This document shows positions 12,153 to 50,718 of a stretch of DNA of 64,000 nt, one piece after another. Position 1 is the first letter of the stretch. The number at the start of each line of letters is the position of its first letter. Position numbers and translations under genes: made by a program. The DNA comes from a virus. Lineage: Duplodnaviria; Caudoviricetes. Location of the stretch: positions 17,472 through 81,471 of IMG/VR virus record IMGVR_UViG_3300017569_000030; one strand, 5' to 3'. The notes under the pieces were generated by a model, which saw only the letters and a list, made by a program, of their open reading frames with translations, searched no databases and had not been told where the DNA came from.

Positions 12153-14087
12153 ATGATTGATACGAAAATAAGACAATAGGGCTTAAAAGCCGATTATGCA
12201 CCTGATACAACACACAAGGATGTTATTTATCTAACTACAGATACAGGTGAAATTTATTTTAATGGAGAAACTTTAGGAATATAGATAGAAGGAGAAGGTG
12301 CAGAAAACCAAATCTTAGTTTACAATGGCGGAACAAGAAAAGGTAAATGGGTTGATGCAGGAGATATATTGGAATTAAAAGATTATGTTTCTTATGGTGT
12401 TCTAGTAGATGAGTCGATCTCTGATCCTCATCTAACTAGAACTGGAAACTTGTCTTTACACAGATCTTTACCAGTTCAATCACAATATAAGGGTTGTGTT
12501 GTTAAAGACAATAAAGTAGTATATTACTTAGATGAAGATGACTGGACATATAAAGAAAATGGTAATCCTAGCAAGGGATATACAGAACAACTTTCAGTTT
12601 TAGATGGAACTGATGGGGATGTCTGTGTTGAAATACCTTAGTTTTATGGATATTGTTATGACTTAGGTGATGGCAAATGGGATGTTCGTATTTCTTTAAC
12701 TAAAGTTTCAGATGATTGGTTTGAAATACCCCACATGTATTGGGGCGCATACAAAGGATGTATTGATAGAACCAGTACTTATAAAGCTAGAAGTGTACAT
12801 AATACTACTGCTAACTTTAGAGGTGGATCAAATAGTCCTACTTATGATTATTTACTAGAGACTAATCCATTCTTCTCTCATTTAGGTAAAGCATCGACTG
12901 GTTTTACTCGCCCTCAATGGCGAACTTATTGTATTAATAATGGTGCACAACCTACCAATTATGAATATTATAAATGGGTAGTATATTGGGCATTTGTAAT
13001 TGAATATGCTAACTTTAATTCTCAAGAAGCGGTAAATTCAGAATTAACTGATGAAGGCTATCATCAAGGTGGATTAGGTTATGGTTTAAGTGATTCAAAT
13101 TCTGTTAGTAGTACAGGAACTTATGCAACAATACCTTGTGGATATACTAACAGTTTAGGAAATCACTCTGGAGAGGTTAAAATTGTTACTGATTCTTGTG
13201 ATCTGAAATATGGTGTAGATTCTAGTATTTATAAATGGTATAGTTATAATGGATGTGTTTAGCAATAGACAACTGTTGAGACAACATGGGATGGAGGTAG
13301 TTGTGAGAGTAAAAATCTTCATATAACATACTTAAATAATACTACTAATATGTAGTTATATAGTGACAACAATGATGCAGGAACTAGATATTACAGTTTT
13401 ACAAGTGTTCCTACTGATTGTACTATTACTTTTAGAATAGATGGAAGCACATTAGCAGATCAAACAGAATATAATAAAGAAGAAAATGGTGATACTTATA
13501 ATGTAACATATCTAGTGGAATGGGGTGTAAATAATTCTAGAAAAACAATACATTTTGAAGGATATAAAGGAGATACGGATATATACTTCTATTATCCAGG
13601 TAATTATTCAACAAATGATCCTGTAGTTGCTACTACATTAGCAGCTGTTACTGGAGCATGCCCTAGATATAGAGGAATTGAAAGTCCCTTTGCTGAAATC
13701 TGGGAATTTCTAGATGGTTGTATAGTAACTTATGATACAGATTCAAAGCAAAATAAATTATATACAAGTCTAGAATGTCCATATTCTGATACTATTAGTG
13801 ATTCTGATTATAGAGGAGATGTTTCTAATAGCGGCGGCTTTGGTAAAAAGCTTTTAATGGGTTCTAGGGCTGATTTTTTCCCTGTTACTACTGGTGGAAG
13901 TTCTAGTACTTATACTTGTGATAGTTTATGGGTAAATACTAGTGCCGAATTGCGCCTCTTGGTCTCTGGTGGGCGCGCGGTCTACGGTTCTTCTTGCGGT
14001 CTCGGCTGCTTGGATGCGTACCGCGGGTTGTCGTACTCGCATGCCGTTATCGGCGGTCGGCTCTTTTTCCTTTCGGTCGGGGCTTGA
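12153..14087 (+). CDS. DGR target protein 1 (644 aa), putative receptor-binding protein with C-terminal C-type-lectin-like domain
   Basis: ATG 12153 to TGA 14085-14087 through TAGs. EYANFNSQEA and PRYRGIESPFAEIWEFLDG motifs; the 3' end is VR1. Confidence 0.88.
13955..14085 (+). repeat. DGR variable repeat VR1
   Basis: 131 nt, ungapped against 14139-14269; 25 mismatches, 24 of them at TR adenines. Confidence 0.95.
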
Positions 14088-14269: not shown

Positions 14270-14389
14270 TTATGGTTATTATGAAATTCTTTTTATTAAT
14301 GAAATTAACTATGCCACTAGGCAAAAAATTACGTATCTAACGGCACATTAGTAAACTATATTGAAAGTGTGCTACAACAAAAGAATATC

Positions 14390-15505
14390 ATGAAAAGAAT
14401 TGATAATTTATATGATAAAATTTGTGATTTATCAAATATTATAGATGCCGCAGCAAATGCTGCCGAAAACAAAAGTAAATAGTATGGAGTACGAATGTTT
14501 CTGAAAAACTCCTTTTAGAATTGTATTAATTTATCTGAGTTATTAAAAAAGGAGCAATATAAAACTTCTCCATATAAATTATTTACAATATATGAACCAA
14601 AAGAACGTCTATTATATAAATTGCCATTTTATCCAGATAGAATTGTTCATCACGCAATAATAAATATACTTGAACCAATTTGGATGAAATTGTTTACACG
14701 AGATACTTATTCCTGTGTTAAGGGAAGAGGTATTCACGGATTAGTAAAAAAGCTAACCAAAGATTTACGATATAATGTTGATGAGACAAAGTATTGTTTA
14801 AAATTAGACATTAAAAAGTTTTATCCAAGTATTGATCACGATATATTAAAACAGATAATACGTAGGAAGATCAAAGATAAAAAAGTATTAAAATTATTAG
14901 ATGAAATTATTGATTCTGCTGAAGGTGTACCAATTGGTAACTATTTATCGTAGTATTTTGCCAATCTATATTTAACTTATTTTGATCATATAATCAAAGA
15001 ATAGAAAAGAGTAAAATATTATTATAGATATGCAGATGATATAGTAATATTATCCTCTAATAAACAAGAATTACATGAGTTACTGACTTTTATTAAAGAA
15101 TATCTTTGGAATGAATTGAAATTAAAAGTTAAAGAAAACTATTAGATTTTTCCAGTTGATAAAAGAGGGATTGATTATGTGGGATATGTATTTTATCATA
15201 CTCATGTTTTATTAAGGAAAAGAATTAAACAAAATATCTTAAAAGCTGCGAGAAATAAGAATATCAAATCTCTTAAAACATATAAAGGTTGGCTTAAATA
15301 TTGTGATTCTAAACATTTAATGCAAAAAATATATAAATTATCTGGATTAAATTTAGATAATTGGAATGGCAGACAAGTTAATAGAATTGAATTAGATGGA
15401 GGAATAATTAAACATATACATAAAATGAAAAATTATTATAATATAGATTTCGTTAAGAATAACAAATCATATTATACAAAAGTTAAGAAATTATGGTTAA
15501 AATAA
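14390..15505 (+). CDS. DGR reverse transcriptase (371 aa, five in-frame TAG)
   Basis: MKRIDNLY start; PFYPDRIVHHA, LKLDIKKFYPSI, GVPIGNYLSQ (Q encoded by TAG 14951-14953), YRYADD (YADD at 15029-15040), GIDYVGY. Confidence 0.95.
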
Positions 15506-26700: not shown

Positions 26701-29700
26701 ATGTTAGTTGCAAATTTTACAAGTAGAATACCTACTATGGGTCTGCTGTAAGTTTGGCCCCTGTTAATAGTGATATTAATATGCAAACTCTGTGAATTGC
26801 TGGGATTCCTTCAAATATTTGGAAAATCAGCAGTTTTATCTTTGTGAAAAGGTAAAATTCAACGACTAATGTATAACACGAGCACAGAGGTTCTAATTTA
26901 GTTAGAATATGATATAGTCTGAGCTTACATGATGATAAAATGTAAGAATTGTTAGATAAAGAGCTAACAAGGTAACAAAATTTGCAAACTAAAACATACG
27001 AGGATTGGTCAAAGTACCTGGGCAGTAAGCCCCACCGTCTTGGTGTAGTAGCTCGTATGTACACTGATAATACTTTGAACTTTATTACAGATGGTCTTAG
27101 GAACGTCTATTACAAGGATGAGAAAGCAGATCAATTCTAGCTTTCTAGTTCTTTATTGTTTGAGTGGAATGTAGAAACAAATAATATCAAACACATAGAG
27201 TTCGCTGAAGTACCAGCTGAAACTGGAGAAAACGGAAATGAAATAACGATGGCGTTCAAAGAGAACTATTATCAGAAGTATGACATCTTTAGAATTGATA
27301 AGACGAAGCAACAGTGTCAAGTTGTTAGCCGTCCAATTCGCAAGCGTGATGATTACTGGGAAGTACAAGTTCGTTTGATTGATAATAACTTTGATACGAT
27401 CCTTGATACAGATGGATGCCAGATTGGTGATACTACAACGTTCCAATCTGTTGCAGTACCCGAATTGAACGAGGAAGGTTTAAATTTAAGATAGCTTTCC
27501 TCCGTTAAGTTAGTTGCTTAATGAAAAATTAAATAAATATTTCTAATTGCTGGAATGCTAAGTTCTTATTGAATATGCCAATCAGCAGCAAAGCCTTAGA
27601 AAATATAAGCTCAAAGAGAAATACTAAGGAATGTTCAACGACTAGTCTAGATAGACGTAGGGGAAATCAACCCCGAAATGGAATAAATCTAAAATTTAAA
27701 TACAATGAAATATATAGTATATCAAACGACCAATAAGGTCAATGGAAAAATTTATATTGGAGTACATAAAACCGAGACTCCGGATGATTTCGATGGATAT
27801 TTAGGAAATGGAATCTATATTTATCGACCTTCTAGTTATATGCATCCAAAAACGTATTTTCAGTATGCTGTAAAGAAATATGGTATTAAAAACTTTATTC
27901 GTACTACAATTAAGGTTTTTGATATAGAAGCAGATGCTTATAAAATGGAAGCAGACTTGGTAAATGATGAATTTATACAAAGAGATGATACTTATAACTT
28001 AATTTTGGGAGGCAAAGATGTATCTCAATTTATGGTTAAAGTTTATATGTATGATCTTAATGGAAATTATGAAATGGAGTTTGAAAGCTTAATTGCTGCA
28101 GCAAAATATTTGAATCCTAACGCAAAAGGAGGAGGACATTTACCTAGAGCAATAAAGCATAGGCATCAATTTCTTGGGCATCAATTTTCGTATGAAAAGG
28201 TTGATAATATAGGACCTATAAAAGCCATGAAAAATCGAACTCATGTTGAAAAACCTTATACAGGAGGGAAAGTAGGAAGATTCGATAAAGAAGGAAACCT
28301 ATTAGAAACGTTTGAAACAATGACTGACTGCGTTAAAGCAGGATATAAAAATGCAAAGTTAGTTGCATTAGGAAAAAGAAATATATGTAAAGGATTTGTA
28401 TTTAAATATTTAGATTAAGATATAGTCTGAACAGTATAGAAACATACTGATTAACAATAATTGTATTCAAAATTCCAATCTCAGATGGAGTTGCATTAGA
28501 TATTAATTACGGTGCAACTTCGAGTTCGCTCAAAATAAACTCCTTTAATTGCTGGGATCTCTCTATGAGACAATCAGCAGCGAAGATTCTACAATAGAAT
28601 AACGTTCAACGACTATCGAAAGTATAGGTTAAATACCGAATAAACGAGTAGAGTACACTTATCATAAGTGGAAACAGGGAGCACCTTTATAAGGTGAAGA
28701 TATAGTCTAAACTTATATGTGAATATAAGAATAATTACGTAATTTCATGACAACATTCCGTTGCGATGCTAGTTGGTCTAGCTTATATGCAATTCAAGAG
28801 AATGTATTTATGAGTATCTGTGATGATAAGGATAAAACAAAGACCGAAGGCGTATATAAAATGCTCAAGAAGGAAAAAGAATTACTCGATACCTTCATGT
28901 ACGCCATGAATACAGGGTGGAAGTAAGCTAGCCCTGATTAAATTCTTCTAATTGCTGGAAACCTCAAAAGGCAATCAGCAGCAAAGATTTAAAAACTAGT
29001 GACAAACAGTTTTAAATAATGTTCAACGACTATCCGTGATAGGATAAGTAAAATTTTACTGAAATGGAGAATAATTTTAAATATATAGTATATCAAACAA
29101 TAAATATTAATAATAATAAGATTTATGTGGGGGTGCATAAAACAAAAGATCCTTCTATATTCGATGGATATATAGGAAATGGTGTAAATATCTATCATCC
29201 AAGTACTTATGTAAAGCCAAAATATCCTTTTCAATATGCTGTAAAAAAGTATGGGACATCAAGTTTCAGAAGATCGGTGTTATATATTTTTGATAATGAT
29301 AAAATGGCATATAACAAGGAGGCAGAAATAGTAAACGAAGAGTTTATTAAACGCTCTGATACATATAATGTAATTTTAAGTGGAAAAATACATCCTACTT
29401 ATTATATTCGATCTTGTATATATCAATTTGATTTACAAGGTAATTTAGTAAAAAAATGGAATGATATTTATGATGTTTCTGAATTTTTATGTACTTGGAA
29501 AGAATCAGTATATTCAGCAATTAGACACAAATCTCGATTGTATAATTTTTATTGGAGTTATTCTGATAGTATTAATCTTTCTGAATACTCTAGTCCAAAT
29601 GAATCTAGGAAAGTTTATCAATATAATAAGGATGGAAAGTGTATAGCAATTTATAATACTATTGGAGAAGCTGCTAGATATAATAATGTTCAACCAGGAC

Positions 29701-32700
29701 ATATAATAACTTATATTAAAGCAGGAACCTTTTCTAAAGGAGAATATTTCTATTCTTATGAACTATATGATGAGTATGTTTCAAAACCTAGATTAGATTT
29801 AAAAGGAAAGACATTATATTTATATGATTTGGATGGAAATTTTATTAAATCGGAATTTATAGTAGATTTTAAACGAGAATTTGATATTCATACATATAAA
29901 GAAATTTCTAATATAATTCTAAATAAATCTAGCTTAAAAGGATTTCAAATTAGATTAGAATATACTGAAACAATAGAGAAATATTCTCCAAAAAATAAGA
30001 AACGTGCCGTAGAAGTTTATACTATTGACGGTTCTTTAGTTGGTGAATTTGAAAGTGTTACTCTTGCTTGCAAAACTCTTAAACTTGATTCATCTACTGT
30101 ATCTAAAATATTAAGAGGAGTAGCAAAAACAACCAAAGGATATACTATAAAATATAAAAATTAAAGATATAGTCTAAACAATATAGAAATATATTGATTA
30201 ATATATATTGTATGCTTTAACAAAGGCAATATAGATGTGAATTAACTTACGGTTCACAATAAACTCCTTTAATTGCTGGGACCTCTTACAGTGTAAGACA
30301 ATCAGCAGCGAAGATTCTACAATAGAATAACGTTCAACGACTATCGAAAACATAGCATTTATTGCAAAGAAGTGAGTAGAGTACATTAAAAATAATGGAA
30401 ACAGGGAGCATCTCTAAATAAGAGATGATGATATAGTCTAAACTATATAGTAATATATAGCTAATATATTGGGTAAACCAACAATCACAGATCCTAAACT
30501 CCTGTGTTGGGATCTTGCAGCGTGAGCTGTATAACAAATAACTCCTTGAATTGCATGAAACTCCTAAATTGTTAGGACAACCTGCAGCTAAGCCTTTTAT
30601 AGGAAAGTTCAACGACTATCGAAAGCGTAGGTATAAATACTGAGTAAGTGAGTAGAGTAGAGAGTAAAATCTCGAAGTGGGGAGCGTCTCTAAACAAGAG
30701 ATGATGATATAGTCTAACCTATATAGTAATATATAGTTAATATATGGACACAGGTCGCGGTATTTATATAGGTGAGGGTAGAGTATCTGCCCCTTAGTAT
30801 CGTAAGATACTTCGATCAGCTGCTTAATTCGGTGAACCCTGAGATGGGAATACCGAGCCAAGTAAGATAATAAAATTATCTGGGCGTGTGTAACGACTAT
30901 GATATATTATAAATTAAAATTTTCATCAATAATTAATAATTATTAGTATGCAAAAAAGAAAAAAATCACTGTTAATTAGCTTAGTATTAGGTGATGGACA
31001 TATTGCTAAATCTGGAAAGGGTAATTGCTTGCAAATTACTCATAGTATTAAACAAAAAGAATATTTTGAATGGAAACGCCAATTAATTGCAGATCTTTTA
31101 GATTGTAATTTACCTGGAGTTTATCATAGAGAGGATTCAAGACATAACGAATTTTCTCTTAATAAAAGTCATAGATATTTTCGTATCATTAGAAAATGGT
31201 TATATAAAAATGGTATTAAGCGATTTAATAAAAAAATATTAGATTATATTACCGCAGAGGGATTGGCTATCTGGTTTATGGATGATGGTAGTCATTGTGT
31301 AAATCGCAGAAAATCTACAGGAAAGGTAATGAGTCATACTTTTAAATTATATACATTTACTAATGAGGAAGACACAGATAATATTATTCAAATGTTTAAA
31401 GAAAAATTTGGCATTAATGTTTATAAATTAAAATATATAAAAAAGGACGGTTCTCTTAGTTATTATTTACAATGGAAAACAAGAGAAGGTAGAAAGTTTT
31501 GTAATTTAATTCGTCCTTATGTTATCCCGTCAATGCAATATAAATTATTGCAACCAGGAGAATAATATATCTTTAACAGCAGCCAACCAGAAATGGTTGA
31601 AGATATAGTCTAAACAAATACAAATTAAAGTATTTGATTAACAAAATTGTTGATACCTCAAATAGAAGCCGCATGTAACAAATATTGTTACAATAATAAA
31701 CCAACATTACCTCTGTTTAACCAGATTATGAACGATATGGCTGACAAAGCCCAGTCTGATACTGGTGGGCACTGGGTGTTTATAGTAAACCGCAAATTAT
31801 GGAATGATGTGAACACAGTTCTTGGTGAGTATCTCGCTAATTATAGAACTGATGGTACTTATATGTATTCCAAGTCTGCAAACAAAGGTATGGGTGGTTA
31901 TGTCAAGGTCGGAGCAACCTTCGACACATATATTTACGCCGGTGAATTGATTGCCGCATAAATTAAAAATAATTTATGAAAATTTATTTAATTGCTGGAA
32001 CATCTTGAAGTTTAATAAGCTATAAAGGAATTAGTAATAATAAACTTGAAAGCTCAAAAATTATTAAATATAAGACAATCAGCAGCGAAGCTTCTAAACT
32101 ACTAAAGCATGAAGAACGTTCAACGATCATCCCTTTGGGAGTAGATTAATATATTAATCGAAATAATAAACATCTTATGGAATTAAAAAATATAGTTTAT
32201 ATAACAGTTAACTTATGTAATAGTAAATTTTACTTTGGGGTTCACAGAACTAATCCAGAAGTTTTTGACGGATATATTGGTGCAGGAATCTACAGACAAT
32301 CAAATGCCACATTAGATACTGCCTTTCATAAAGCTGTGCGAAAATATGGTTATGATAATTTTAAAAGAACTATAATTGCTATTTTTCCAGATACAGAAGA
32401 AGGAAGAGAGTAGGCTTTTAATTTAGAAGCAAGTATAGTAACTAAAACTTTGATTAAAAGTAAAAATTGTTATAATTCTGCTTTAGGAGGGCAGGGAAGT
32501 ACAAATATAGATACAAAACGTGTTTATATGTTTAATTTGAAAGGAAATTTTTTAAGAAGTTTTTCTAGTATTAGAGAAGCAGCAAACTTTATTGATTCTA
32601 CAAATGAATATAATGTTTTAAAAGCTATTAGAAATAATTGTTTGGGAAAAAATAGTAACAGCAGTTATGGTTATTTTTGGAGTTATAAGAAAAAATTTGA

Positions 32701-34769
32701 AAATAATAATCATTGTAATAGAAAAGTAGCACAATACACAATTTCTGGAAAATTTCTTAGATATTATGATAGTATGACTGAAGCAGAACAAGAGCTTCAA
32801 ATAAGTACAATATATCAAGCTATTATTAAAAAATTTACTTCTGGAGGATTTCAATGGAGATATTATGATGGTGATACATCTGATATATCGACTTTGATTT
32901 CTAGGAAAAATAAAAATTTAGTATTACCTATTAAAATGTTTTCTAAAGATGGAACATTTATAAAAGAGTATAACTGTGTAAACGATTGTGTAAAAGAAAA
33001 TCCAAATTTATCTGCCAGTTAGATAAATAGAGTTTTAACCAAAATAATTAAATCTCATAAAGGTTTTACTTTTACATACAAAGATGAAGATATGATCTAG
33101 TCTATTTAGAAATAAATAGTATATCGAATGAAATTTCGTTTGTGGTAGATAGAGCATTAACTCGTGAATATCCAGATAAGGGTTATGGAGTATGCATCGA
33201 TCTTACCGCAGATAAAACATCTGGAACTCCTGCTGTTGCAAAATTCAGTATCACTGGAAAAGATTTCATGACCAACAAACTTATAGGCGTAGGCGGGTAT
33301 GATGGAAAAAGTTCTGGTGAAGTTGCAAGCAATGTAGCAGGTTCTAAGCTAATAATGATGGGCTTAAAAATATTTATTTGACAGCGTAGGTCCATCAATA
33401 AAAAATTCTTTTAAGTGCTGGAAAGTAGCATAACTGATATTAACTTGTTAAGTTTTAATAATAATATTAGTGCTATAATCAGCAGCCAAGATGTATTTGT
33501 AATTCCTTTAGGAATTAATACACAAGGTTCAACGACTAGGCGCAAGCCATAGATTAATTTATTAAAATTAAATCGAAATGGAGAATAATCAAATCAAATA
33601 TATTGTATATTGTACTACCTGTACAATTAATAAATTCATTTATATTGGTTATCATAAAACCAAAAATCCAGATATTTTTGATGGATATATAGGAAATGGA
33701 ATTTATATAAATAATCCAAGTACCTATAATAATCCTAAACAAAAATTTCAATATGCTGTAAAGAAATATGGTCCTTCTAATTTTATAAGAAGTACAATTG
33801 CCGTATTTAATACCGAAGAAGAAGCGTTAGATTTAGAAGCGGAAATAGTAAATGAAGAATTTCTTAAACGGTCTGATGTATATAACGTGGCATTAGGAGG
33901 TTTAGGAGGGAATTGGATAATAACAGCACATAAAACTTATCAATATGATTCTGAAGGAAACTTTTTAAATGAATATGTATCTATTAAAGATGCTTCTATG
34001 AAAATTAACCGATCTTTCAGAAGTTTATGGAGGGCTATTAATGATAAATGTAAGTGTGGAGGATTTTTTTGGACAGAAACGAAATTTGATAAATTAGATT
34101 TATCAAAAATGAAATTATATGAAGGATTACACACGATACCTACTTTTCAATATGATAATTTGGGAAATTATGAATGTTGTTATGATTCAATTTCTGATGC
34201 TGGAAGAATATTAAATATTCATTCAGCAAATATTTCTAGAGCAATTAAATTAGGAGAAATATGTAAAAATAAGTATTTTACAAATATCTATGCTCCTAAC
34301 TATAGCATTTCAAAAGATAGACAAATTAAATCCTTTGAAATACACCAATATGATTTAGCAGGTAAATATATTACCTCATATAAAAATATGCAAGAAGCTA
34401 AAAATAAATTAAAAATTAAGGCAAATATTTATACTGCTATTAAATTGGGGCAAACGTGTGGAGGTTATCAATGGAATTTTGAAAAGTTGCCTCAAATGCC
34501 TCCTGTTAAATCTAAATCTGGAAAAGCTCGAAGAGTTGGTAAATTTGATAAAAATAATAATCTTGTGGAAGAATATAAGTCCTTAGCAGAGTGCAAAAGA
34601 ATTAATGGAGCTTCAGTAGAACACGTTATTAGGGGTAGAAATGAATTTTCTAAGGGGTACAAATATAAATATTTAGATGATTAAAGATATAGTCTGAAAT
34701 TTAGTCAATTTTGACGCTGGTGTAGCGGCTTTCACTCCTTATAGGTCAGTAATTGTCCGTGAGGCTTAA
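26701..34769 (+). CDS. Major capsid protein, 10 exons: 26701-26742, 26985-27479, 28464-28496, 28738-28918, 30211-30242, 30472-30495, 30747-30779, 31650-31943, 33127-33364, 34714-34769 (1428 nt, 475 aa)
   Basis: Exons join in frame: ..PTMG|QTKT..PELNEEG|YSKFQSQMELH|RNFMTTFR..MNTG|LCFNKGNIDVN|GKPTITDP|DTGRGIYIGEG|LIPQIE..YIYAG|NEISFVVDRAL..KLIMMG|YAGVAAFTPYRS, resembling crAss-like MCPs. Each 5' junction has a P1 helix ending in U.G. Confidence 0.9.
26743..26984 (+). ncRNA. MCP group I intron 1 (242 nt, no ORF)
   Basis: P1 GGGU/GCCC; P10 AGUUUG/CAAACU; AATCAGCAG, TTCAACGACTA, GATATAGTCT. Confidence 0.9.
27480..28463 (+). mobile_element. MCP group I intron 2 (984 nt) with GIY-YIG endonuclease
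   Basis: P1 GAGGAAGGU/GCUUUCCUC; core motifs flank the ORF; ends AATAATTG. Confidence 0.9.
27705..28418 (+). CDS. GIY-YIG homing endonuclease with NUMOD1-like repeats (237 aa)
   Basis: YIVYQTTNKVNGKIYIGVH, YLGNG, EADLVN..YNL. Confidence 0.87.
   Translation: MKYIVYQTTNKVNGKIYIGVHKTETPDDFDGYLGNGIYIYRPSSYMHPKTYFQYAVKKYGIKNFIRTTIKVFDIEADAYKMEADLVNDEFIQRDDTYNLILGGKDVSQFMVKVYMYDLNGNYEMEFESLIAAAKYLNPNAKGGGHLPRAIKHRHQFLGHQFSYEKVDNIGPIKAMKNRTHVEKPYTGGKVGRFDKEGNLLETFETMTDCVKAGYKNAKLVALGKRNICKGFVFKYLD
28497..28737 (+). ncRNA. MCP group I intron 3 (241 nt, no ORF), apparent terminal A
   Basis: P1 GAGUUGCAU/GUGCAACUU; P10 AUUACG/CGUAAU places the 3' splice site after A28737. Confidence 0.85.
28919..30210 (+). 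mobile_element. MCP group I intron 4 (1292 nt, phase 1) with GIY-YIG endonuclease
   Basis: P1 CAGGGU/GCCCUG; core motifs; terminal G30210. Confidence 0.88.
29064..30164 (+). CDS. GIY-YIG homing endonuclease with NUMOD1-like repeats (366 aa)
   Basis: YIVYQTININNNKIYVGVH; repeated YQ(F/Y)DxxG units. Confidence 0.87.
   Translation: MENNFKYIVYQTININNNKIYVGVHKTKDPSIFDGYIGNGVNIYHPSTYVKPKYPFQYAVKKYGTSSFRRSVLYIFDNDKMAYNKEAEIVNEEFIKRSDTYNVILSGKIHPTYYIRSCIYQFDLQGNLVKKWNDIYDVSEFLCTWKESVYSAIRHKSRLYNFYWSYSDSINLSEYSSPNESRKVYQYNKDGKCIAIYNTIGEAARYNNVQPGHIITYIKAGTFSKGEYFYSYELYDEYVSKPRLDLKGKTLYLYDLDGNFIKSEFIVDFKREFDIHTYKEISNIILNKSSLKGFQIRLEYTETIEKYSPKNKKRAVEVYTIDGSLVGEFESVTLACKTLKLDSSTVSKILRGVAKTTKGYTIKYKN
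30243..30471 (+). ncRNA. MCP group I intron 5 (229 nt, no ORF)
   Basis: P1 UGUGAAU/GUUCACA; core nearly identical to intron 3. Confidence 0.9.
30496..30746 (+). ncRNA. MCP group I intron 6 (251 nt, no ORF)
   Basis: P1 AGAUCCU/GGGAUCU; P10 CCUGUGUU/GACACAGG. Confidence 0.9.
30780..31649 (+). mobile_element. MCP group I intron 7 (870 nt) with LAGLIDADG-type endonuclease
   Basis: P1 GGGU/GCCC; different core (AATTCGGTGAA..AATACCGAG..GTAACGACTA..AAGATATAGTCT); terminal G31649. Confidence 0.87.
30948..31565 (+). CDS. LAGLIDADG-family homing endonuclease (205 aa)
   Basis: Two helices LISLVLGDGHI and GLAIWFMDDGS. Confidence 0.87.
   Translation: MQKRKKSLLISLVLGDGHIAKSGKGNCLQITHSIKQKEYFEWKRQLIADLLDCNLPGVYHREDSRHNEFSLNKSHRYFRIIRKWLYKNGIKRFNKKILDYITAEGLAIWFMDDGSHCVNRRKSTGKVMSHTFKLYTFTNEEDTDNIIQMFKEKFGINVYKLKYIKKDGSLSYYLQWKTREGRKFCNLIRPYVIPSMQYKLLQPGE
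31944..33126 (+). mobile_element. MCP group I intron 8 (1183 nt) with GIY-YIG endonuclease
   Basis: P7 is GATCA (32125-32129)/TGATC (33093-33097); terminal G33126. Confidence 0.85.
32177..33115 (+). CDS. GIY-YIG homing endonuclease (312 aa with TAG=Gln)
   Basis: IVYITVNLCNSKFYFGVH; track ORFs 32177 and 32450 join through TAG 32411; first TAA at 33113-33115. Confidence 0.8.
33365..34713 (+). mobile_element. MCP group I intron 9 (1349 nt, phase 1) with GIY-YIG endonuclease
   Basis: P1 UGAUGGGCU/GGUCCAUCA; P10 CAGCGU/ACGCUG; terminal G34713. Confidence 0.88.
33578..34684 (+). CDS. GIY-YIG homing endonuclease with NUMOD1-like repeats (368 aa)
   Basis: YIVYCTTCTINKFIYIGYH; EAEIVNEEFLKRSDVYNV shared with the 29064 ORF. 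Confidence 0.87.
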   Translation: MENNQIKYIVYCTTCTINKFIYIGYHKTKNPDIFDGYIGNGIYINNPSTYNNPKQKFQYAVKKYGPSNFIRSTIAVFNTEEEALDLEAEIVNEEFLKRSDVYNVALGGLGGNWIITAHKTYQYDSEGNFLNEYVSIKDASMKINRSFRSLWRAINDKCKCGGFFWTETKFDKLDLSKMKLYEGLHTIPTFQYDNLGNYECCYDSISDAGRILNIHSANISRAIKLGEICKNKYFTNIYAPNYSISKDRQIKSFEIHQYDLAGKYITSYKNMQEAKNKLKIKANIYTAIKLGQTCGGYQWNFEKLPQMPPVKSKSGKARRVGKFDKNNNLVEEYKSLAECKRINGASVEHVIRGRNEFSKGYKYKYLDD

Positions 34770-43200: not shown

Positions 43201-44590
43201 AATTTATAATATAGAGGATTTATAGTATTATAATTTAGATTTGAACAGTAATGATATGTGTTTTAGTAAGATAGCAACTGTATGTATAGGAGATGATGGT
43301 GATGGTGGTGATCGAACACGTCTTGGTGTTGGTTATCCTACGACACTTGACGGTAATTATATACATAAGGACGGAAATAATGATGTATTTGACCAGGTAA
43401 GGTTTCCATGGAGAGTATCTGGTAAAAATGCTTTAAATTGGTTCAATGAAAAATACCAAATATCTGATGATGGTGAAAATTTATATAATTATATGCCTGG
43501 CATTTGTTTAGTGCTTCTTATACATCACAAGAATTATGGTAATAGGTATCAATTTGTTGATGGATATATGGAATCCAAACATAATGCAATTACAGCTAAT
43601 TCTTCTTATGCATTTACTAAAATGCCGTTTGATGAATTTAAAGGACTCAATTAGAATTTCAATAATGTTTCTACGGATAATTGTGTATGTTTTTTAACTT
43701 GTATGGATGAGAATAATAATGTACATATATTAAACAACGCTTTTAATCTTTATAAGTCGTATAGTTCAAGCAGTGGATTAGGTCTATTTGCTACTACGAA
43801 CATTAATGGAACAACACAAAAGTTTCCTATATCTAATTTAGTAGCATCTCTGTTAAGTTCTATATATTACGGATCTTCAGAATCAGTTAATCAATCAGTT
43901 GTTGTGGTTGATTCTAATATTTATTTAAGTGAACATCTTGTAAATTTTATTAATGATATTGTAATAGACATAAAACCTAAGTCATAGAATTTATCTATCT
44001 TTGAACAAAATGTAGATACTTATAATTAGTATGTTGCAATGCATACACTATCATTTAATAGTTATTTAGGGGAAATACAAAAGCAATTAATAGAAAATGA
44101 TAAATAGGAAGATATTAACACTTCTAATGTCAATTTTATTCTTAATAATACAAGACTTAATGCTCCTCTAGTTATTGCATTGGAATATATACAACCAGAA
44201 TCTAACTCAGAGAACTATAATTCTGTAATTTACACTTTAGATAGTGATATTCCAATTTTATCAAATTAGACCGTTACTTCTAATATGTTATATTATTTAT
44301 CTGATACAAATGAATTAATAAAATTATCTAGTAAATTTCCGTTTAAAGTATATGAGACCTTTAAAGAAAACAACGGAGTAATTCAAAGAAGTGATCCAAA
44401 AATAGTATTAAATAGTGATTTAAATTCAAGTTTTAAGTTATATAATGGAGTTTTAAAATGTACAACATCACATATTGGTGATCGAGGTCCATACGTTTAT
44501 GGAATATCTGGTAAAGAAGAGACATGGTCCGAAATAACTCCTATCATAAAGAAAGAGTCATTAATATATGAAGCAAGATTAGCACAATGA
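40214..44590 (+). CDS. Large tail protein (about 1458 aa)
   Basis: NALNATLITMNGNENALQNDMGNG N terminus; eight track ORFs share this frame; TGA 44588-44590. Confidence 0.75.
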
Positions 44591-47500
44591 GTATTATATG
44601 GAATAAAGTAGTTGGTGATAAGTCAATTAAATTTGGAGTTTTGAGTAAAGTGACTCCGACTAAAGGTAATTTAGTGTATGAATACAATCCTTTTAGAAAT
44701 TATAGACTTACTAACTATAAATTTGAGTACAACAATTAGCTTTACTCATTAAAAGAATTATATAATGATTTTAATATATATCCTATTATAAATACAGGAA
44801 CTTTTTGGAAAGTAAATGGAACTAAGTATTATGATTTTAAGAATACAAATAAAGTTTTAGTAATAGAATAGAGTAATAATGCTATTGTGCTTGAAAATAA
44901 ATCATTACTTTCTGACCAATCTTCTATTCCAACGGAAAATTATTATATATACGATAATTAGATATATCAAAAAGTTGCAACATATAAATTGAATGATACA
45001 GATTATCAAAAGACTTCTGGAAATAAAATAACATTAAACTATTATAAGTATAGTTATAGTGATTCAGAAACTTTCTCTGGAACACAATTAACTTTTTTAA
45101 TTAAAAAGAAAAACTTTGAATATATTTTCTGGCAATGGAGTAAAGCTCCTACACAAGAAACAGAGTTATTAGAATTATATACTAAGTATTCTGATGAAAT
45201 CTATAATGCTTTAAAACAACTTGATTCAATTACTTGGAATGAAAATGCATCTATTAGTATGTATTATCCAGGTGAATTAGTTGATTTTGAAACCGATTAG
45301 TTCTCTTTTTCTATTAATAATCCTGTAAATATAGTTGCTTAGCCTAGTTATGATGGATCTGTTAATTTAATTTTAAATGATGGACTTAATTAGCCGAGAT
45401 TAATTAATAGTAGGTTTAGTTCTACTGGAAGAAATACTTATGAGGTTATAGATAGAAAAGGAAATAACGATACTAATATATATGATTAGGGAGATCAATT
45501 TGATATTGATACTTCTTTATTTAAAAGAGTTACTAAAATTCCGAAAATTACTTTTAATGGAGTATCTGCAGGAGGTAATTTGAAAGTAGGAAATTATCAT
45601 TTCTATTTTAAATTTGCTGATGCAGATGGAAATGAAACTGATTTTATTGGAGAATCTGGTTTAGTAAGCCTTTTTATTGGTTTTGATAATTATGCTTCAG
45701 TACAAACTGGAGAGCGAGATGAGAATAGTTTTAAAACTGTAACATTTACTATTAAGAATATTGATTCAGCTTATCAATATGTTCATGTATATTATTCTCG
45801 AAGTACTGCAGAAATTAATCAAAACGATATTACTCAGTATGTAAAAATTGATAAAAACTTCTTAGTTAATAACGTTGCAGTTTGTACTTGTAATATTACT
45901 GGTTTTGAAAATATTATTGAAGTAACAGCAGAAGATATAAATCCTTTTTATAATATTGTAGATAGTGCTGTAGCACAAACTACATGTTAGAATATGTTAT
46001 TCTTAGGTAATGTACATAAACCAGATATAAATTATAAAGAATTAAGTGATTTATCTTTAAGGTTTTTACCGTATTTGCAAGAAGAATTGTATAATTCAGA
46101 TATAGATTAGAATTATGATATTTCCACCTCTAATAAAGGTTATATTGATCCAAATTTTATTTATAATAAAGTTGGATATTGGCCTAACGAAATATACAGA
46201 CTTGGAGTAGTATATTTACTACCAAATGGAGAATTATCTCCAGTATTTAATATTAGGGGAATACATCAAATTACAGCATACGATGAAAATTTATATACTG
46301 ATTATCCAGTATATAAAGATGGAGAACGAAATTACATACAATATAATGAAGAAACATATTATTTAATAGAATCTACATCAAATAAAAGCTATGAAAATGT
46401 TAAAGGTGTTTTAACTTTAGAGCAAGGATCTGACACTAATACAATATATTCTATTAATATTAAAGTAGATGCAGAAGTAATTTCTGAATTAAAAAAATAT
46501 GTTAAAGGTTATTTCTTTGTAAGACAAAAACGTATTCCTACTGTATTAGCACAAGGAATTACTATAGGAATTGATAGAGAATCTGGAACACCAACTATTC
46601 CTACTGCTGATGGATTTTTAAGTGATTTATCAAATTCTTTAGATTCTACTTATGTAGAAACTTCTGATATTAATGGAGTGAATTTTATATCTGAAGGATT
46701 TTTGCATCGCTACACTTTTTCTTTAAAAAAGAAAAGTTCTGGATTATTTAGTAGTATCTTAAAAGGAATAGCAATAGGTGTTGCTGTTGTAGCATTAGCT
46801 GTAGCCACCGTATATACTGCAGGAGCTGCAGGAGCTTTAGCTGCAGGACTCACATTAAGTGGGGCTATAACTGCAGGAGCAACTGCTGTTACTACTACTG
46901 CTGCTGCTGTATTAGGAGCAACAACTGTTGCTGCTGTTGGTGGAGGATTAGCTGCTGCAGGTATTACTGCTGCTGCTGTTGGTTTAACAGTAGGAGCAAC
47001 TATTGCAACTGCAGGAGCAATTCAAGAAATAAGGTATGGTATATCTTCAATGATTTAGCATAGTAAAAAAGAATTAAAGGGACGAGATACCGAAATACCT
47101 TCTGGATATAAAAGGGTCGAAAATGATGACTCTAGGAAATTAACACAAAGTTATTTGGATAGGCTCATTATTAAGGATCAAAACTATAATATTAATTGTG
47201 GTATATTATGTCCCGATTATGAAGTTAACCAACCTTATTTTAATTCAATCTTTACTGGTAATGAACATTATATAGAATTGACTAAAACACAAGGAATAAA
47301 TGAATTAAATGGTCTTGATTCTAATTATTTCTCAAATGATACAGAAAGACATTTTTATATTCCTTCTTACTATGATAATTCTTCAATACAAAGTTACACA
47401 TTTAAAATTGTTCCAGTAGGGGATAATGTAAAATGTGCGGGAGTTGATGATACTATCTTTAGGGCTAGAGCAGGAGAAGCTGAAGAAGCTTGGAGATATG

Positions 47501-50500
47501 AATGTATTGGAGAAGATTACAAATCTGATCAAGTTAAAGGTTCTAGTTCTGAAGATGAAGAAACTATATCAAATAAAAAGATAAATAGTGACATTATTAG
47601 AGGTAGTTTTGGACCATATTTAGCAATAAATAATTTATAGAATAGATTAGGAACAGCTAAAACTGTAAATATATATATTCCAGGTTATAGTAAAACTAAT
47701 ATGGAAAAATACTTCTATTTAAGAATGGAAGATACTTCTACATTTGAAGCTATTTCTGAAAGATTTGATATAAACGATTTAATGGATTATTCAGATAAAA
47801 CTTATATTTCTGACAATGTTTCAGAATATAATTTCTATTTATACAGAGGAGATTGTTATTTATGTTAGTTTACACATAGAGTAAATAGAAATTTTAACGA
47901 TCCAAGTTCACCTTATAATGATGAAATTGTAGACGAGGATTGTTGGAAAGAAAATTATGATCCACAAAATACTGAAAAATATGAAGAAATAAATCTTGGA
48001 GATGTTAATGCAATTCAACTCGGAATGTGGTGTACGTTTAGAGTTCGGTCAACATATAATTTGAATATAAGAACTGTTGATAATTCTAATGTAGATGAAA
48101 TTGCCATGACAGGCCATCCTAGAGCATATTTTCCATTTTAGGATATGAGTGTCGAAGGTTCTTACAAACATCCAGAAGCACAAGTATATAATCAAGGATT
48201 TGAAAGATCTTTAAGTGAAAGATATAACTTTGAAGTACCTGATGTTCCATATATTAAAAACTGGTTTAAAACACGTATTATGTATTCTGATGTTCATGTA
48301 AATGATGCATTTAAGAATGGATATAGAGTATTTCAAGGAACACACTATCGAGACTATACTAGAGAATATGGAGAAATAGTTAAATTAGTAACAATTAAAT
48401 CCAATATTCTTTGTATATTTGAACACGCTGTTGCACTTATTCCTGTTAATGAACGCGCATTAGCCGCTCAAGGTGATGGTGGAAACGCATATATCAACAC
48501 ATCTAATGTATTACCTGAGAATCCTAAAATTATTTCCGATACTTTTGGTAGTCAATGGGCTGATAGTATTGTTAAAACATCTGGAATCTTTGGAGACTCT
48601 ATTTAGTATGTATATGGTGTTGATACTATTGCAAAGAAAATTTGGCGTACAGATGGTACAAGTTTAACTTGTATTTCTGATTTTGCAGTTCAAGAGTTTT
48701 TAAATAACAATATTACACTAGGAGAACGTGAATTAACCCCAACTATAGGTATTAGAAATGTTAAATCATTCTATAATGCTTATAAGAGAGATGTTCTGTT
48801 TACATTCTATGATAATACTTATGGATTTGAAGAATGTGTCTGGAATTTATGTTGGAATGAACTATTAAGTAAATGGGTTACATATTATAGTTGGGTTCCA
48901 AGTGCTATGGAAAATATTAATAATATTCCATTCTCATTTAATAGAAATACATCTAAATGGATTGCTAAATTAGGAACAAGTCATACTAATAGTTCATTTG
49001 CTGATGGCATTACTTTAACCAATTCAATAATTAATAATAATTCTAGCGACGGATGGATTGTTGATAATAGAGAATTTACTGTATAGTATGTTAATACGTC
49101 TGGAGAATTAACAAATAAAACCTATAGAATATCTACATGTAATAATACTAATTACATTGGTATGTTATCGTTAAGCAACAGAGTTCTGCCAGATTACAAT
49201 TTCTTCTATACAGTCGATTTTAGTATTGAACGAGATAATTATTAGAATTATAAATATTTTAATGTCGAGCCGTTCTCGGGAACAGTTGTTGTAACTGATC
49301 TTTATGGTGATACAAATACATATTCAATAAACAATGGAGTATTTACACTTGGAGGTTTCGGTATTTCAGATGCTAAATACTCTGGTAAGTCAATAAAATT
49401 ATATTGTTTAACACTTAAATCTGGATATTCTCCTCGGAATTTAATGTCAGAATTATATTATCGTAATTCAGCAGGTAATAGTTATGCAGATGATTCTAAG
49501 AATAGAATAACAACAAGTAATTTATTATCAGAGTCAGACACATATTTTACTTATCCAATTTATAAAAATAAAGCAGGAAAACGAGAATGTTTAGATAATC
49601 CAATAAATAAAACTAATATAGTTACTTTACTTAATATTCGTGCTACTATTGATTTAACTCCAGAATCAAATAAGAATGATGATTATTATAATATGATTGC
49701 TACCTATAATGAAGAAACAAGCAAAGTAGGAAGTAATTATTATTCATCAGTTATAGCATTAACTCCAAAATGGAATCTTCAATTCTTATCTACAGATTTC
49801 TGGAAGCACGGATAGGCAGGTATTATAGATATATCAGATGATCTTTATCCTACTTATTGGTATGGAGAACAACATCCATTTGAATTTGAGTTTGTAGTAG
49901 TTGATAATGCTCAAACACATAAAATCTTTGATAACTTAGAAATTATAAGTAATAATGCAGAACCAGAATCATTCCACTATGAAATAGTTGGAGATTGTTA
50001 TGACTTTGCAGACGATAAGAAGAATATGTATATTAGATAGGAAGCTACTAAAGAACTTTATTAGTATAATGGAGTTGATGTAGTATATGATCATGATTAT
50101 ACTAAATTAGAAGAAGAGCAGCGACCTATTGAAGGCTCAAATTATTATGATAAATCTACTTTATTACCTCTTTGGTATACTCGCCAAGATACTATAAACG
50201 AAATTGAGGATCATTATCATTTAAAAGATGGAATTAGTTCATCTAAAGATTTTTCAGCTATGGCAGGAGGAGAAATTGTTAAATATTAGAATTTAGGAGA
50301 ATTTAGAATTTGGAATCATGCTAAAGCTGTCGATATAAGAGATAATGGAGGAAGGCTTAGAGGTAATATGCAATATAAAGAAGATAGATGGTTTATTCAA
50401 ATCAATCCTCTTAATATTGTTTAGAAAAATGAGAGTGCTTGGACAAACGGTAAGATACCAATTGAATTAGGACAAAGTCCTCTTCCAGATACTATATTAG

Positions 50501-50718
50501 AAAAAGGACACTTTGATATTCCTAGTGCAGATGAAAGTGAAAGTCTTTATAATAGAGATATGGTTAATTGGAATTGGGCTGAAATTAATTCTTCTCAAAT
50601 TAGACATTCTGAATCTAAATTAAAAGATAAATGGATAAAAATTCGTATTAGATACAAAGGAGATAAATTAGCTGTAATAACAGCTATACGTACATTATAT
50701 AGTATAAGTTATGCTTAA
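44587..50718 (+). CDS. Very large tail (muzzle/stabilisation-like) protein (about 2043 aa)
   Basis: GNLVYEYNPFRNYR start; six track ORFs share frame 1; C-terminal KLKDKWIKIRIRYKG; TAA 50716-50718. Confidence 0.75.

What the first reader, a model, noticed from the sequence alone, without database searches (positions are those of the whole stretch)
26701..34769. Major capsid gene is 82 percent intron: nine group I introns, ten exons
Seen: 1428 coding nt spread over 8069 nt; junctions supported by P1 U.G pairs and mostly by P10; exon sum divisible by three. Known: intron-rich crAss-like lineages exist. Inference: nine self-splicing events for the most abundant virion protein is extreme and may act as a timing device or a heavy load.
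Basis: partly seen in the sequence, partly recalled or inferred. Interest (0 to 1): 0.72.

Follow-up and report, generated by a model that had tools for sequence, protein, structure and literature searches.

The report
Phage capsid gene with nine introns
The only major capsid gene seen in this gut crAss-like phage fragment is cut into ten pieces by nine self-splicing-type (group I) introns, an extreme but not new kind of case; one intron ends in A instead of the usual G.

Summary
Confirmed. The window is from a crAss-like phage that reads TAG as glutamine. Its major capsid (MCP) gene runs from 26701 to 34769. Ten exons (42, 495, 33, 181, 32, 24, 33, 294, 238, 56 nt; 1428 nt in all) join into one frame. 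That frame aligns without a gap to the uninterrupted 1428-nt MCP genes of five relatives, and with one compensated indel to a sixth.

All nine inserts are group I introns. Four pass Rfam's threshold. The five that hold homing-endonuclease genes give partial RF00028 hits and keep the core motifs. Every 5' exon ends in U opposite a G.

Eight introns end in G. Intron 3 ends in A, and an independent contig has the same base.

Relatives carry 0 to 7 introns at about 15 or more sites, and one intron block sits 99% identical in a diverged exon background. That is the signature of mobile, selfish elements. Nothing supports a timing device.

The kind is known (Yutin 2021: a crAss-like MCP in five fragments). 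The published per-gene counts I found are 3 to 4. Earlier notes of this scan, which I did not check, report 8 and 11 introns in related capsid genes.

Splicing itself is inferred, not shown.

The parts
26701..26742 (+). MCP exon 1 (42 nt, 14 codons, ATG start)
   Evidence: It aligns to residues 1-14 of intron-less MCPs.
26743..26984 (+). Intron 1, 242 nt, no ORF, ends in G
   Evidence: RF00028 scores 56.4 bits, above the gathering score of 50. By eye the P1 is GGGU/GCCC, with a 5-bp P10 (CAAAC/GUUUG).
26985..27479 (+). MCP exon 2 (495 nt), with an in-frame TAG at 27138-27140 read as Gln
   Evidence: phrog_11589 major head protein. The TAG column holds Q in 4 relatives and E in 2.
27480..28463 (+). 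Intron 2, 984 nt, ends in G; holds a GIY-YIG-type homing endonuclease ORF at 27705-28418
   Evidence: RF00028 scores 45.5 bits on the 5' part and 24.8 bits on the 3' part. P1 is 9 bp. The ORF hits phrog_314, NUMOD1 and TIGR01453. Orthologous introns sit at the same site in L006, L007, L015, L078 and L079.
28464..28496 (+). MCP exon 3 (33 nt micro-exon)
   Evidence: It reads YSKFQSQMELH, against YVKYQSNIERH in L001.
28497..28737 (+). Intron 3, 241 nt, no ORF; the last base is A (28737), not G
   Evidence: RF00028 scores 85.4 bits. An 11-bp P1 with a terminal U.G runs straight into a 7-bp P10. The sequence is identical in the independent contig L084. No in-frame T...G junction exists.
28738..28918 (+). 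MCP exon 4 (181 nt)
   Evidence: tblastn hit with E 2e-9. The junction is gap-free, and the H-R-N-F motif is kept in intron-less relatives.
28919..30210 (+). Intron 4, 1292 nt, ends in G; holds a GIY-YIG-type endonuclease ORF at 29064-30164
   Evidence: RF00028 scores 46.5 bits on the 5' part and 24.4 bits on the 3' part. P1 is 6 bp. Orthologues are found in L082 and L083.
30211..30242 (+). MCP exon 5 (32 nt micro-exon)
   Evidence: With the last T of exon 4 it reads LCFNKGNIDVN, against LLFNKTNVDKN in L001.
30243..30471 (+). Intron 5, 229 nt, no ORF, ends in G; a sibling of introns 3 and 6
   Evidence: RF00028 scores 81.2 bits. P1 is GUGAAU/GUUCAC. See alignment A1.
30472..30495 (+). MCP exon 6 (24 nt micro-exon)
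   Evidence: It reads GKPTITDP, against GKPTLFDP in L001.
30496..30746 (+). Intron 6, 251 nt, no ORF, ends in G
   Evidence: RF00028 scores 98.2 bits. P1 is 7 bp and P10 is 8 bp.
30747..30779 (+). MCP exon 7 (33 nt micro-exon)
   Evidence: It reads DTGRGIYIGEG, against DTGRPIYIGDG in L001.
30780..31649 (+). Intron 7, 870 nt, ends in G; holds a LAGLIDADG endonuclease ORF at 30948-31565
   Evidence: This is the weakest Rfam match: 16.5 bits, E 0.034 on the 5' part and 17.7 bits on the 3' part. The core motifs AACGACTA and GATATAGTC are present, as are P8 and P9 hairpins. The ORF hits LAGLIDADG_2 with E 5e-27.
31650..31943 (+). MCP exon 8 (294 nt)
   Evidence: tblastn hit with E 6e-21.
31944..33126 (+). 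Intron 8, 1183 nt, ends in G; holds a GIY-YIG-type ORF at 32177-33115 with 4 in-frame TAG
   Evidence: RF00028 scores 22.6 bits, E 7e-4 in a targeted scan. Both P7 strands have changed together (GAUCA/UGAUC instead of GACUA/UAGUC). Orthologues are found in L082 and L011.
33127..33364 (+). MCP exon 9 (238 nt)
   Evidence: tblastn hit with E 2e-20.
33365..34713 (+). Intron 9, 1349 nt, ends in G; holds a GIY-YIG-type endonuclease ORF at 33578-34684
   Evidence: RF00028 scores 33.7 bits, E 3e-7 in a targeted scan. P1 is 9 bp (8 bp by eye) and P10 is 6 bp (ACGCUG/CAGCGU). The P7 motif starts at 34686.
34714..34769 (+). MCP exon 10 (56 nt including the TAA stop)
   Evidence: The junction reads MMG-Y-AGVAAFTPY, against NWG-Y-SGVGVFSPY in L001, with no gap.

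Best explanation
This is the major capsid protein gene of a TAG-to-Gln-recoded crAss-like phage. The genome sizes of its relatives and its intron density point to the large-genome 'Zeta' type. The gene has been colonised nine times by mobile group I introns. A late transcript of about 8.1 kb must undergo nine group I splicing reactions. In each, an external G attacks after the exon-terminal U of a U.G pair in P1, and the freed exon then attacks after the intron's last base, guided by P10. The result is a 1428-nt frame that is translated with one TAG read as Gln. Five introns carry homing-endonuclease genes: four I-TevI-like GIY-YIG-type and one LAGLIDADG. During mixed infection these would copy the introns into empty capsid alleles. 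Three of the four ORF-less introns (3, 5 and 6) lie 24-33 nt from an endonuclease-bearing neighbour, so they can be carried along in the same repair tract. The load is best read as selfish accumulation in a conserved, essential target, not as a regulatory device. What is shown: the exon map, the group I identity of the inserts, the optional presence of introns in relatives, and a co-conversion signature. What is inferred: that all nine actually splice, the hitch-hiking, and the cost.
For: - **Exon map.** The joined exons total 1428 nt with no stop except one TAG. They align gap-free to five uninterrupted 1428-nt MCP genes, with one compensated indel to a sixth (L009), and end to end to L001 with no gap at any junction.
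- **Phage identity.** A close homologue hits the Crass_capsid family at 52.3 bits against a cut-off of 27. The Crassvirus muzzle protein is encoded at 44587-50718.
- **TAG recoding.** 56 of 68 long frames end in TAG, and the frames fuse when TAG is read as Q. TAG columns hold Q in 11 of 15 cases.
- **Group I identity.** RF00028 is above threshold for introns 1, 3, 5 and 6. The other five give partial hits. The GATATAGTC motif occurs exactly once per intron, shortly upstream of each 3' junction. Every RF00028 hit in the 64-kb window lies in this gene.
- **Splice-site pairing.** P1 and P10 are longer than in mismatched controls.
- **Endonucleases.**
- **Mobility.** Across the 83 related loci mapped, the same gene holds 0 to 7 introns at about 15 or more sites. 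L084 shares the intron 2-exon 3-intron 3 block at more than 99% identity, yet exon 4 diverges by about 17% beyond the first 31 nt.
- **Single copy.** The 81-kb record holds one MCP copy. A relative estimated 100% complete, with seven introns, also holds only one.
Against: - No RNA or protein data are available, so splicing is inferred.
- Intron 3 has A where the second splicing step normally needs G. No in-frame U...G junction exists there, so this allele may splice poorly or in another way.
- Intron 7 matches the Rfam model only weakly, at 16.5 bits.
- The record is estimated only 49% complete, so a second capsid gene in the missing half is not excluded.
- The contig is a metagenome assembly, so the linkage of all nine introns on one molecule is not proven.
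Confidence: 0.87

Rival explanations
1. The allele is defective. With A instead of G at the end of intron 3, the capsid mRNA cannot be completed, or it is ligated at the G two bases downstream, which writes a UAA stop. On this reading the contig represents a non-viable or helper-dependent genome.
For: The last base of intron 3 is A. The tail of sister intron 2 ends AAUAAUUG, whereas intron 3 ends AAUAAUUA. The P7 strands match those of canonical sibling intron 5, so the G-binding site is unchanged. Ligation at G28739 would give CAU|UAA.
Against: The same A is present in an independent assembly from another sample, on a diverged exon 4 background and with different downstream introns. All ten exons are intact and conserved. 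P1 and P10 at this junction are the longest of the nine, 18 continuous base pairs.
Confidence: 0.08
2. The count is inflated by assembly. Co-existing strains with different optional introns were merged into one contig, so no single genome carries all nine.
For: The introns are optional among relatives, and haplotypes with other combinations exist (L084). The record is a metagenome-derived contig.
Against: The micro-exons of 24-33 nt between introns 2 and 3, and between introns 4, 5, 6 and 7, are shorter than a sequencing read, so those neighbours should be linked within single reads (inference). Independent assemblies of relatives carry seven introns, one of them in a record estimated 100% complete. 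L084 independently confirms the linkage from intron 2 through exon 3 and intron 3 to the start of intron 4.
Confidence: 0.06
3. The introns are kept because they do something useful, such as delaying or gating capsid synthesis.
For: All detectable group I introns in the 64-kb window sit in this one late gene. The literature discusses possible regulatory roles of phage introns (PMC11878797, PMC3073962).
Against: Most relatives, including the closest found, make the same protein from an uninterrupted gene. Number, site and endonuclease content vary freely. The co-conversion pattern and the endonuclease genes explain the persistence without any benefit to the phage.
Confidence: 0.05

Closest known systems
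[quoted passage not shown] 2021, PMC7886860)
   Same: The phage assemblage matches: crAss-like, with relatives of 145-190 kb, stop-codon recoding and a high intron density. The gene is the same. Group I introns with endonuclease domains split the frame across reading frames.
   Different: The published case has five fragments (four interruptions, three of them with intron-type domains) and no recoded stops in that gene. Here there are ten fragments, nine introns recognisable as ribozymes, micro-exons of 24-42 nt, an in-frame TAG, and one intron ending in A. I did not test whether this phage belongs to the Zeta group by phylogeny.
Staphylococcus phage Twort gene with three similar group I introns; Bastillevirinae polymerase and terminase genes with up to three (PMC3073962, PMC11878797)
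   Same: Several related group I introns sit in one essential phage gene. Sibling introns lie close together, which raises the possibility of exon skipping.
   Different: Those genes have three introns per gene, against nine here. Splicing was shown by experiment there and has not been shown here.
Phage T4 td / nrdB / sunY introns with I-TevI-type endonucleases (own knowledge; reviewed in PMC3984707)
   Same: The mechanism proposed here is the same: self-splicing, an endonuclease ORF looped out of the ribozyme core, in-frame stops soon after the 5' splice site, and homing with co-conversion of flanking exon sequence.
   Different: T4 has one intron per gene. The endonucleases here match the GIY-YIG and TIGR01453 models only below their cut-offs.
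Agaricus bisporus mitochondrial cox1, 'the largest reservoir of mitochondrial group I introns' (PMC2987802)
   Same: One conserved, essential gene acts as a sink for many mobile group I introns with endonuclease ORFs.
   Different: That is an organelle gene of a eukaryote, which depends on nuclear and intron-encoded maturases. It is not a virus structural gene.
Jug jumbo gut phages (PMC12880540)
   Same: These are gut Bacteroides-type phages with many group I introns in essential genes. Metatranscriptome reads confirmed splicing for 37 of 76 predicted introns.
   Different: Those introns are spread over many genes (about 18 per genome, terL in 2-3 fragments), and the phages use the standard code.

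Membership tests
Group I intron (Rfam RF00028) | Covariance-model score at or above the gathering score (50 bits) | tested here: met
   This holds for introns 1, 3, 5 and 6, which score 56.4, 85.4, 81.2 and 98.2 bits.
Group I intron (Rfam RF00028) | The same score criterion, applied to the five ORF-containing introns (2, 4, 7, 8, 9) | tested here: inconclusive
   All five fall below 50 bits, because the 0.6-1.1-kb ORFs split the model. Scores are I2 45.5 + 24.8, I4 46.5 + 24.4, I9 33.7 (E 3e-7), I8 22.6 (E 7e-4), and I7 16.5 (E 0.034) + 17.7. All five keep the P4/P6, AACGACTA and GATATAGTC core motifs.
Group I intron | The 5' exon ends in U, paired with G in P1 | tested here: met
   This holds for 9 of 9. 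The P1 mean is 7.0 bp, against 3.8 bp in 72 mismatched exon/intron pairs. For introns 1 and 8 the script picked another G; by eye their P1 is 4 bp.
Group I intron | The intron ends in G (omega-G) | tested here: not met
   This holds for 8 of 9. Intron 3 ends in A at 28737 under the only in-frame, homology-consistent junction. The base is the same in L084.
Group I intron | Self-splicing activity | not testable with these tools
   No RNA data are available. This needs in-vitro transcription and splicing, or cDNA.
Crassvirales major capsid protein (Pfam PF23898 Crass_capsid) | Profile match above the curated cut-off | tested here: met
   I tested the uninterrupted homologue L004:9956-11380, because the exons were not joined for tools. 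It scores 52.3 bits against a cut-off of 27, E 4e-14. Exon 2 of the window alone hits phrog_11589 major head protein, E 2e-4.
Zeta group of crAss-like phages (Yutin 2021) | Placement in the Zeta clade in TerL/MCP/portal trees | not tested
   Only indirect evidence exists. Relatives' contigs span 85-190 kb, with those estimated 95-100% complete at 155-166 kb. TAG is recoded and intron density is high. No Zeta reference sequences were on hand.
GIY-YIG homing endonuclease (PF01541 / TIGR01453 grpIintron_endo) | Profile match above the curated cut-off | tested here: inconclusive
   PF01541 scores 13.6-18.1 bits against a cut-off of 22.6. TIGR01453 scores 30.6-36.3 bits against a cut-off of 56. The clear matches are NUMOD1 and phrog_314 'homing endonuclease'.
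LAGLIDADG homing endonuclease (PF03161) | Profile match above the curated cut-off | tested here: met
   The ORF at 30948-31565 scores 95.2 bits against a cut-off of 25.

The most novel reading that the evidence does not exclude
Intron 3 (28497-28737) may be a natural group I intron that completes exon ligation after a terminal adenosine. On this reading the 3' splice site is set only by an unbroken 18-bp guide (an 11-bp P1 running straight into a 7-bp P10). This would explain why the same A persists in two diverged phage genomes. A stranger variant is also possible. If the ribozyme instead uses the G two bases downstream, splicing itself creates a UAA stop four bases before an AUG, and the capsid protein would be made as two chains.
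Probability: 0.3. Interest if true: 0.65.

Novelty: new member of a known kind. Interest (0 to 1): 0.45.

Why it matters
The gene shows how far mobile introns can load a single essential virus gene. The most abundant virion protein would depend on nine RNA splicing events and on stop-codon suppression. If each step were 90% efficient, only about 39% of transcripts would be complete (simple arithmetic, not measured).

It is also a practical warning. Standard gene callers would miss this capsid gene entirely.

The set of relatives, with 0 to 9 introns at about 15 or more sites, is a natural series for studying intron homing, hitch-hiking of ORF-less introns and their cost. Intron 3 is a concrete, testable exception to the rule that group I introns end in G.

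Tried and rejected
- **PHROGs on single exons.** Only exon 2 matched. I used an uninterrupted homologue as proxy for the family tests.
- **GenBank phages.** Megablast of the whole locus found no match. tblastn of exon 2 found only two unannotated records.
- **More copies of the intron 3 end.** I scanned IMG/VR and JGI metagenomes with N at the last base. Only L084 came back, and the metagenome scan found nothing.
- **The 11-intron relative.**
- **Automated test for canonical T...G boundaries in relatives' introns.** This was confounded because the junctions were scored against the window's own, diverged protein. I use it only for the window and L084.
- **Spliced-alignment artefacts.** My script invents 2-5-residue micro-exons in L015, L016 and L083. 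I corrected the counts with the P7 motif.
- **Automated P1 finder.** It picked a wrong G for introns 1 and 8.
- **Alternative junctions for intron 3**, all rejected:
  - Ending at G28729 gives a stop in every phase.
  - Ending at G28739 with the 5' exon ending at U28496 gives CAU|UAA.
  - Ending at G28739 with the 5' exon ending at U28497 gives a frameshift into a stop.
  - CA|U... is in frame, but it drops a conserved Arg and would need cleavage at an A-U pair next to a good U.G pair.
- **tRNA scan.** ARAGORN found no suppressor tRNA in the window.
Full report
**What the window is.** All long frames lie on the + strand. Of 68 stop-to-stop frames of at least 100 codons, 56 end in TAG, and many are followed in the same frame by the next one. 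With TAG read as Gln they fuse into tightly packed genes of up to 2043 codons. In gap-free alignments of the capsid gene, TAG columns hold Gln in 11 of 15 cases. A close homologue of the capsid protein matches Pfam Crass_capsid at 52.3 bits against a cut-off of 27. The 2043-codon gene at 44587-50718 matches the Crassvirus muzzle protein. The record is an 81-kb virus contig, estimated 49% complete. Relatives' contigs span about 85-190 kb, and those estimated 95-100% complete are 155-166 kb. This size, the recoding and the intron density fit the Zeta group of crAss-like phages as described by Yutin et al. (PMC7886860). I did not test clade membership.

**Checking the observation.** A tblastn search with exon 2 found MT835470.1, whose capsid gene is one uninterrupted 473-codon frame (L001 9782-11203). 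Aligning that protein to the window located eight of the ten coding pieces between 26701 and 34766. I found the other two micro-exons and fixed every junction by reading the DNA around each gap. My own spliced protein-to-DNA alignment recovered the same ten pieces.
- The exons are 26701-26742, 26985-27479, 28464-28496, 28738-28918, 30211-30242, 30472-30495, 30747-30779, 31650-31943, 33127-33364 and 34714-34769.
- Introns make up 82.3% of the 8069-nt locus.
- The product aligns end to end with the L001 protein at 55% identity, with no gap at any of the nine junctions.
- Five IMG/VR relatives (L004, L008, L010, L012, L013) have uninterrupted capsid genes of exactly 1428 nt that align to the joined exons without a gap, at 74-77% DNA identity. 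A sixth, L009, aligns with one compensated indel.
- This fixes every exon junction to the base.

**Are the nine inserts group I introns?**
- Rfam's RF00028 model passes its gathering score for introns 1, 3, 5 and 6, at 56-98 bits.
- The other five each contain an ORF of 0.6-1.1 kb that splits the model, and they give partial hits. Intron 2 scores 45.5 + 24.8 bits and intron 4 scores 46.5 + 24.4 bits. Intron 9 scores 33.7 bits with E 3e-7, and intron 8 scores 22.6 bits with E 7e-4. Intron 7 scores 16.5 bits with E 0.034, plus 17.7 bits for its 3' part.
- All nine share the core sequence blocks (AAUUGCUGG-type P4, AAUCAGCAGC-type P6, (U)UCAACGACUA, GAUAUAGUC) in the right order.
- GATATAGTC, allowing one mismatch, occurs exactly once in each intron, shortly before its 3' end.
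- In intron 8 both P7 strands have changed together, from GACUA/UAGUC to GAUCA/UGAUC.
- Intron 7 is the weakest by score. Downstream of its ORF it still has a P3 partner, a P8 hairpin, the P7 strand, and a P9 hairpin and tail like those of intron 2 (read).
- All nine 5' exons end in U. The U can pair with a G in a helix averaging 7.0 bp, against 3.8 bp (sd 1.4) when exons and introns are deliberately mismatched. P10 averages 4.7 bp against 2.7 bp.
- Every intron has an in-frame TAA or TGA within 0-16 codons of its 5' splice site (read), as is usual for phage introns.
- No RF00028 hit lies anywhere else in the 64-kb window.

**The endonucleases.**
- The ORFs in introns 2, 4, 8 and 9 match phrog_314 'homing endonuclease', NUMOD1 and I-HmuI NUMOD-like DNA-binding modules. 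They also match TIGR01453 'group I intron endonuclease' and the GIY-YIG domain, but below the cut-offs.
- The ORF in intron 7 is a clear LAGLIDADG_2 protein.
- The four intact ORFs (introns 2, 4, 7 and 9) contain no TAG codon. At the phage's own TAG frequency of 1.35%, 16 would be expected (P about 1e-7). The ORF in intron 8 has four.

**Evidence for mobility.**
- I mapped the capsid gene onto 82 related loci.
  - Most are uninterrupted, including the closest relatives found.
  - About twenty carry one intron and a few carry two to four.
  - L081, L082 and L083 carry seven each, after correcting script artefacts with the P7 motif.
- Together the occupied sites number about 15 or more.
- The same site is occupied in at least one relative for intron 1 (L081-L083), intron 6 (L077, L083) and introns 2, 4, 8 and 9. 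For introns 5 and 7 the relatives' sites lie 2-5 codons away. Only introns 2, 4, 8 and 9 also have sequence-level orthologues.
- Only the site of intron 3 is otherwise seen solely in L084.
- L084 is a 6.5-kb contig from another sample. It matches the window from the end of exon 2 through intron 2, exon 3, intron 3 and the first 31 nt of exon 4 with 7 differences in 1298 nt. It then shows 22 differences in the next 128 nt of exon 4, and carries different introns further on.
- That is the pattern expected from homing with a short co-conversion tract. It also shows intron 3 (no ORF) travelling with intron 2 (ORF), 33 nt away.
- Introns 3, 5 and 6 are siblings with nearly the same core but different guide regions. 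Each lies 24-33 nt from an endonuclease-bearing intron. Hitch-hiking on the neighbour's double-strand break is a reasonable inference for why the introns cluster around micro-exons.

**The anomaly.**
- Intron 3's 5' site is fixed by an 11-bp P1 ending in U28496.G28512.
- The 3' exon must start at C28738. Every relative has His-Arg-(Asn/Gly)-(Phe/Tyr) there, and CGUAAUU pairs with AAUUACG directly next to P1.
- The intron therefore ends in A28737. Sister intron 2 ends AAUAAUUG, and intron 3 ends AAUAAUUA.
- Every alternative with a terminal G gives a stop or a frameshift.
- The only other in-frame join (CA|UAAU) drops the conserved Arg and would need cleavage at an A-U pair.
- The P7 strands, which form the G-binding site, match those of canonical sibling intron 5.
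- The identical sequence in L084 argues against an assembly error, and for an allele that survives in nature.
- By established knowledge of the mechanism (PMC3984707), the second step uses the terminal G. So one of three things is true: this intron ligates after A, helped by its unusually long continuous guide; or it uses G28739, which writes UAA at the join four bases before the AUG at 28747; or the allele is crippled.
- I cannot decide between these with sequence alone.

**Comparison with what is known.**
- Yutin et al. reported group I introns in MCP genes of Delta and Zeta crAss-like phages, up to 14 introns per genome, and one MCP in five fragments. The Crassvirales review repeats this.
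- Cultured phages reach three introns per gene: Twort (PMC3073962) and Bastillevirinae (PMC11878797).
- Jug phages average 18.5 introns per genome spread over many genes, with splicing confirmed by RNA reads for about half.
- Nine in one gene therefore exceeds the published per-gene counts I found. It is the same kind of thing, and relatives with seven exist.
- Earlier notes of this scan, which I could not verify, report 8 and 11 introns in capsid genes that share sequence words with this one.
- The fungal cox1 gene (PMC2987802) is the organelle analogue.

**Verdict.** The interpretation as nine group I introns is supported. The 'timing device' reading is not supported, and selfish accumulation is the better reading. 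Splicing, and above all the fate of intron 3, still needs RNA or peptide evidence.

Noticed in passing
window 28497-28737 (last base 28737); L084 5263-5503 (minus strand): Intron 3 ends in A instead of G. The same base is present in an independent contig from another sample. If G28739 were used instead, the join would read CAU|UAA, with an AUG four bases downstream.
   Followed up: partly
window 27705-28418, 29064-30164, 30948-31565, 33578-34684, against the rest of the window: The four intact intron-encoded endonuclease genes contain no TAG codon, where 16 would be expected at the phage's own rate of 1.35% (P about 1e-7), and all end in TAA. They look written for the standard code inside a TAG-recoded genome. 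That would fit early expression or recent arrival.
   Followed up: partly
window 32177-33115: The endonuclease gene of intron 8 has four in-frame TAG codons. Two lie inside regions homologous to the other endonucleases. It is therefore either adapted to the recoded state or a pseudogene under the standard code.
   Followed up: no
L084 (IMGVR_UViG_3300029966_000107) against window 27471-28960: Intron 2, exon 3, intron 3 and the first 31 nt of exon 4 are more than 99% identical to the window. The rest of exon 4 differs at 22 of 128 positions. This is a co-conversion tract showing that the two introns moved as one unit.
   Followed up: yes
window 28497-28737, 30243-30471, 30496-30746: ORF-less introns 3, 5 and 6 share almost the same ribozyme core but have different P1/P2 guide regions. 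Each lies 24-33 nt from an endonuclease-bearing intron.
   Followed up: partly
L081 about 13136-13586: A relative has two introns separated by a micro-exon of only about 14 nt near codon 455-457 of the same capsid gene.
   Followed up: partly
window 14307-14390: Sub-threshold Rfam hits to RT-18 (37.5 bits against a gathering score of 41.3) and RT-17 RNAs lie in the region where other readers noted a diversity-generating retroelement.
   Followed up: no
window 32097-32110 and 33089-33103: In intron 8 both strands of P7 differ from the other eight introns in a compensating way: GAUCA/UGAUC instead of GACUA/UAGUC.
   Followed up: no
whole window: ARAGORN finds no tRNA gene in the 64 kb, so the TAG suppressor must lie elsewhere in the genome or come from the host.
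   Followed up: no
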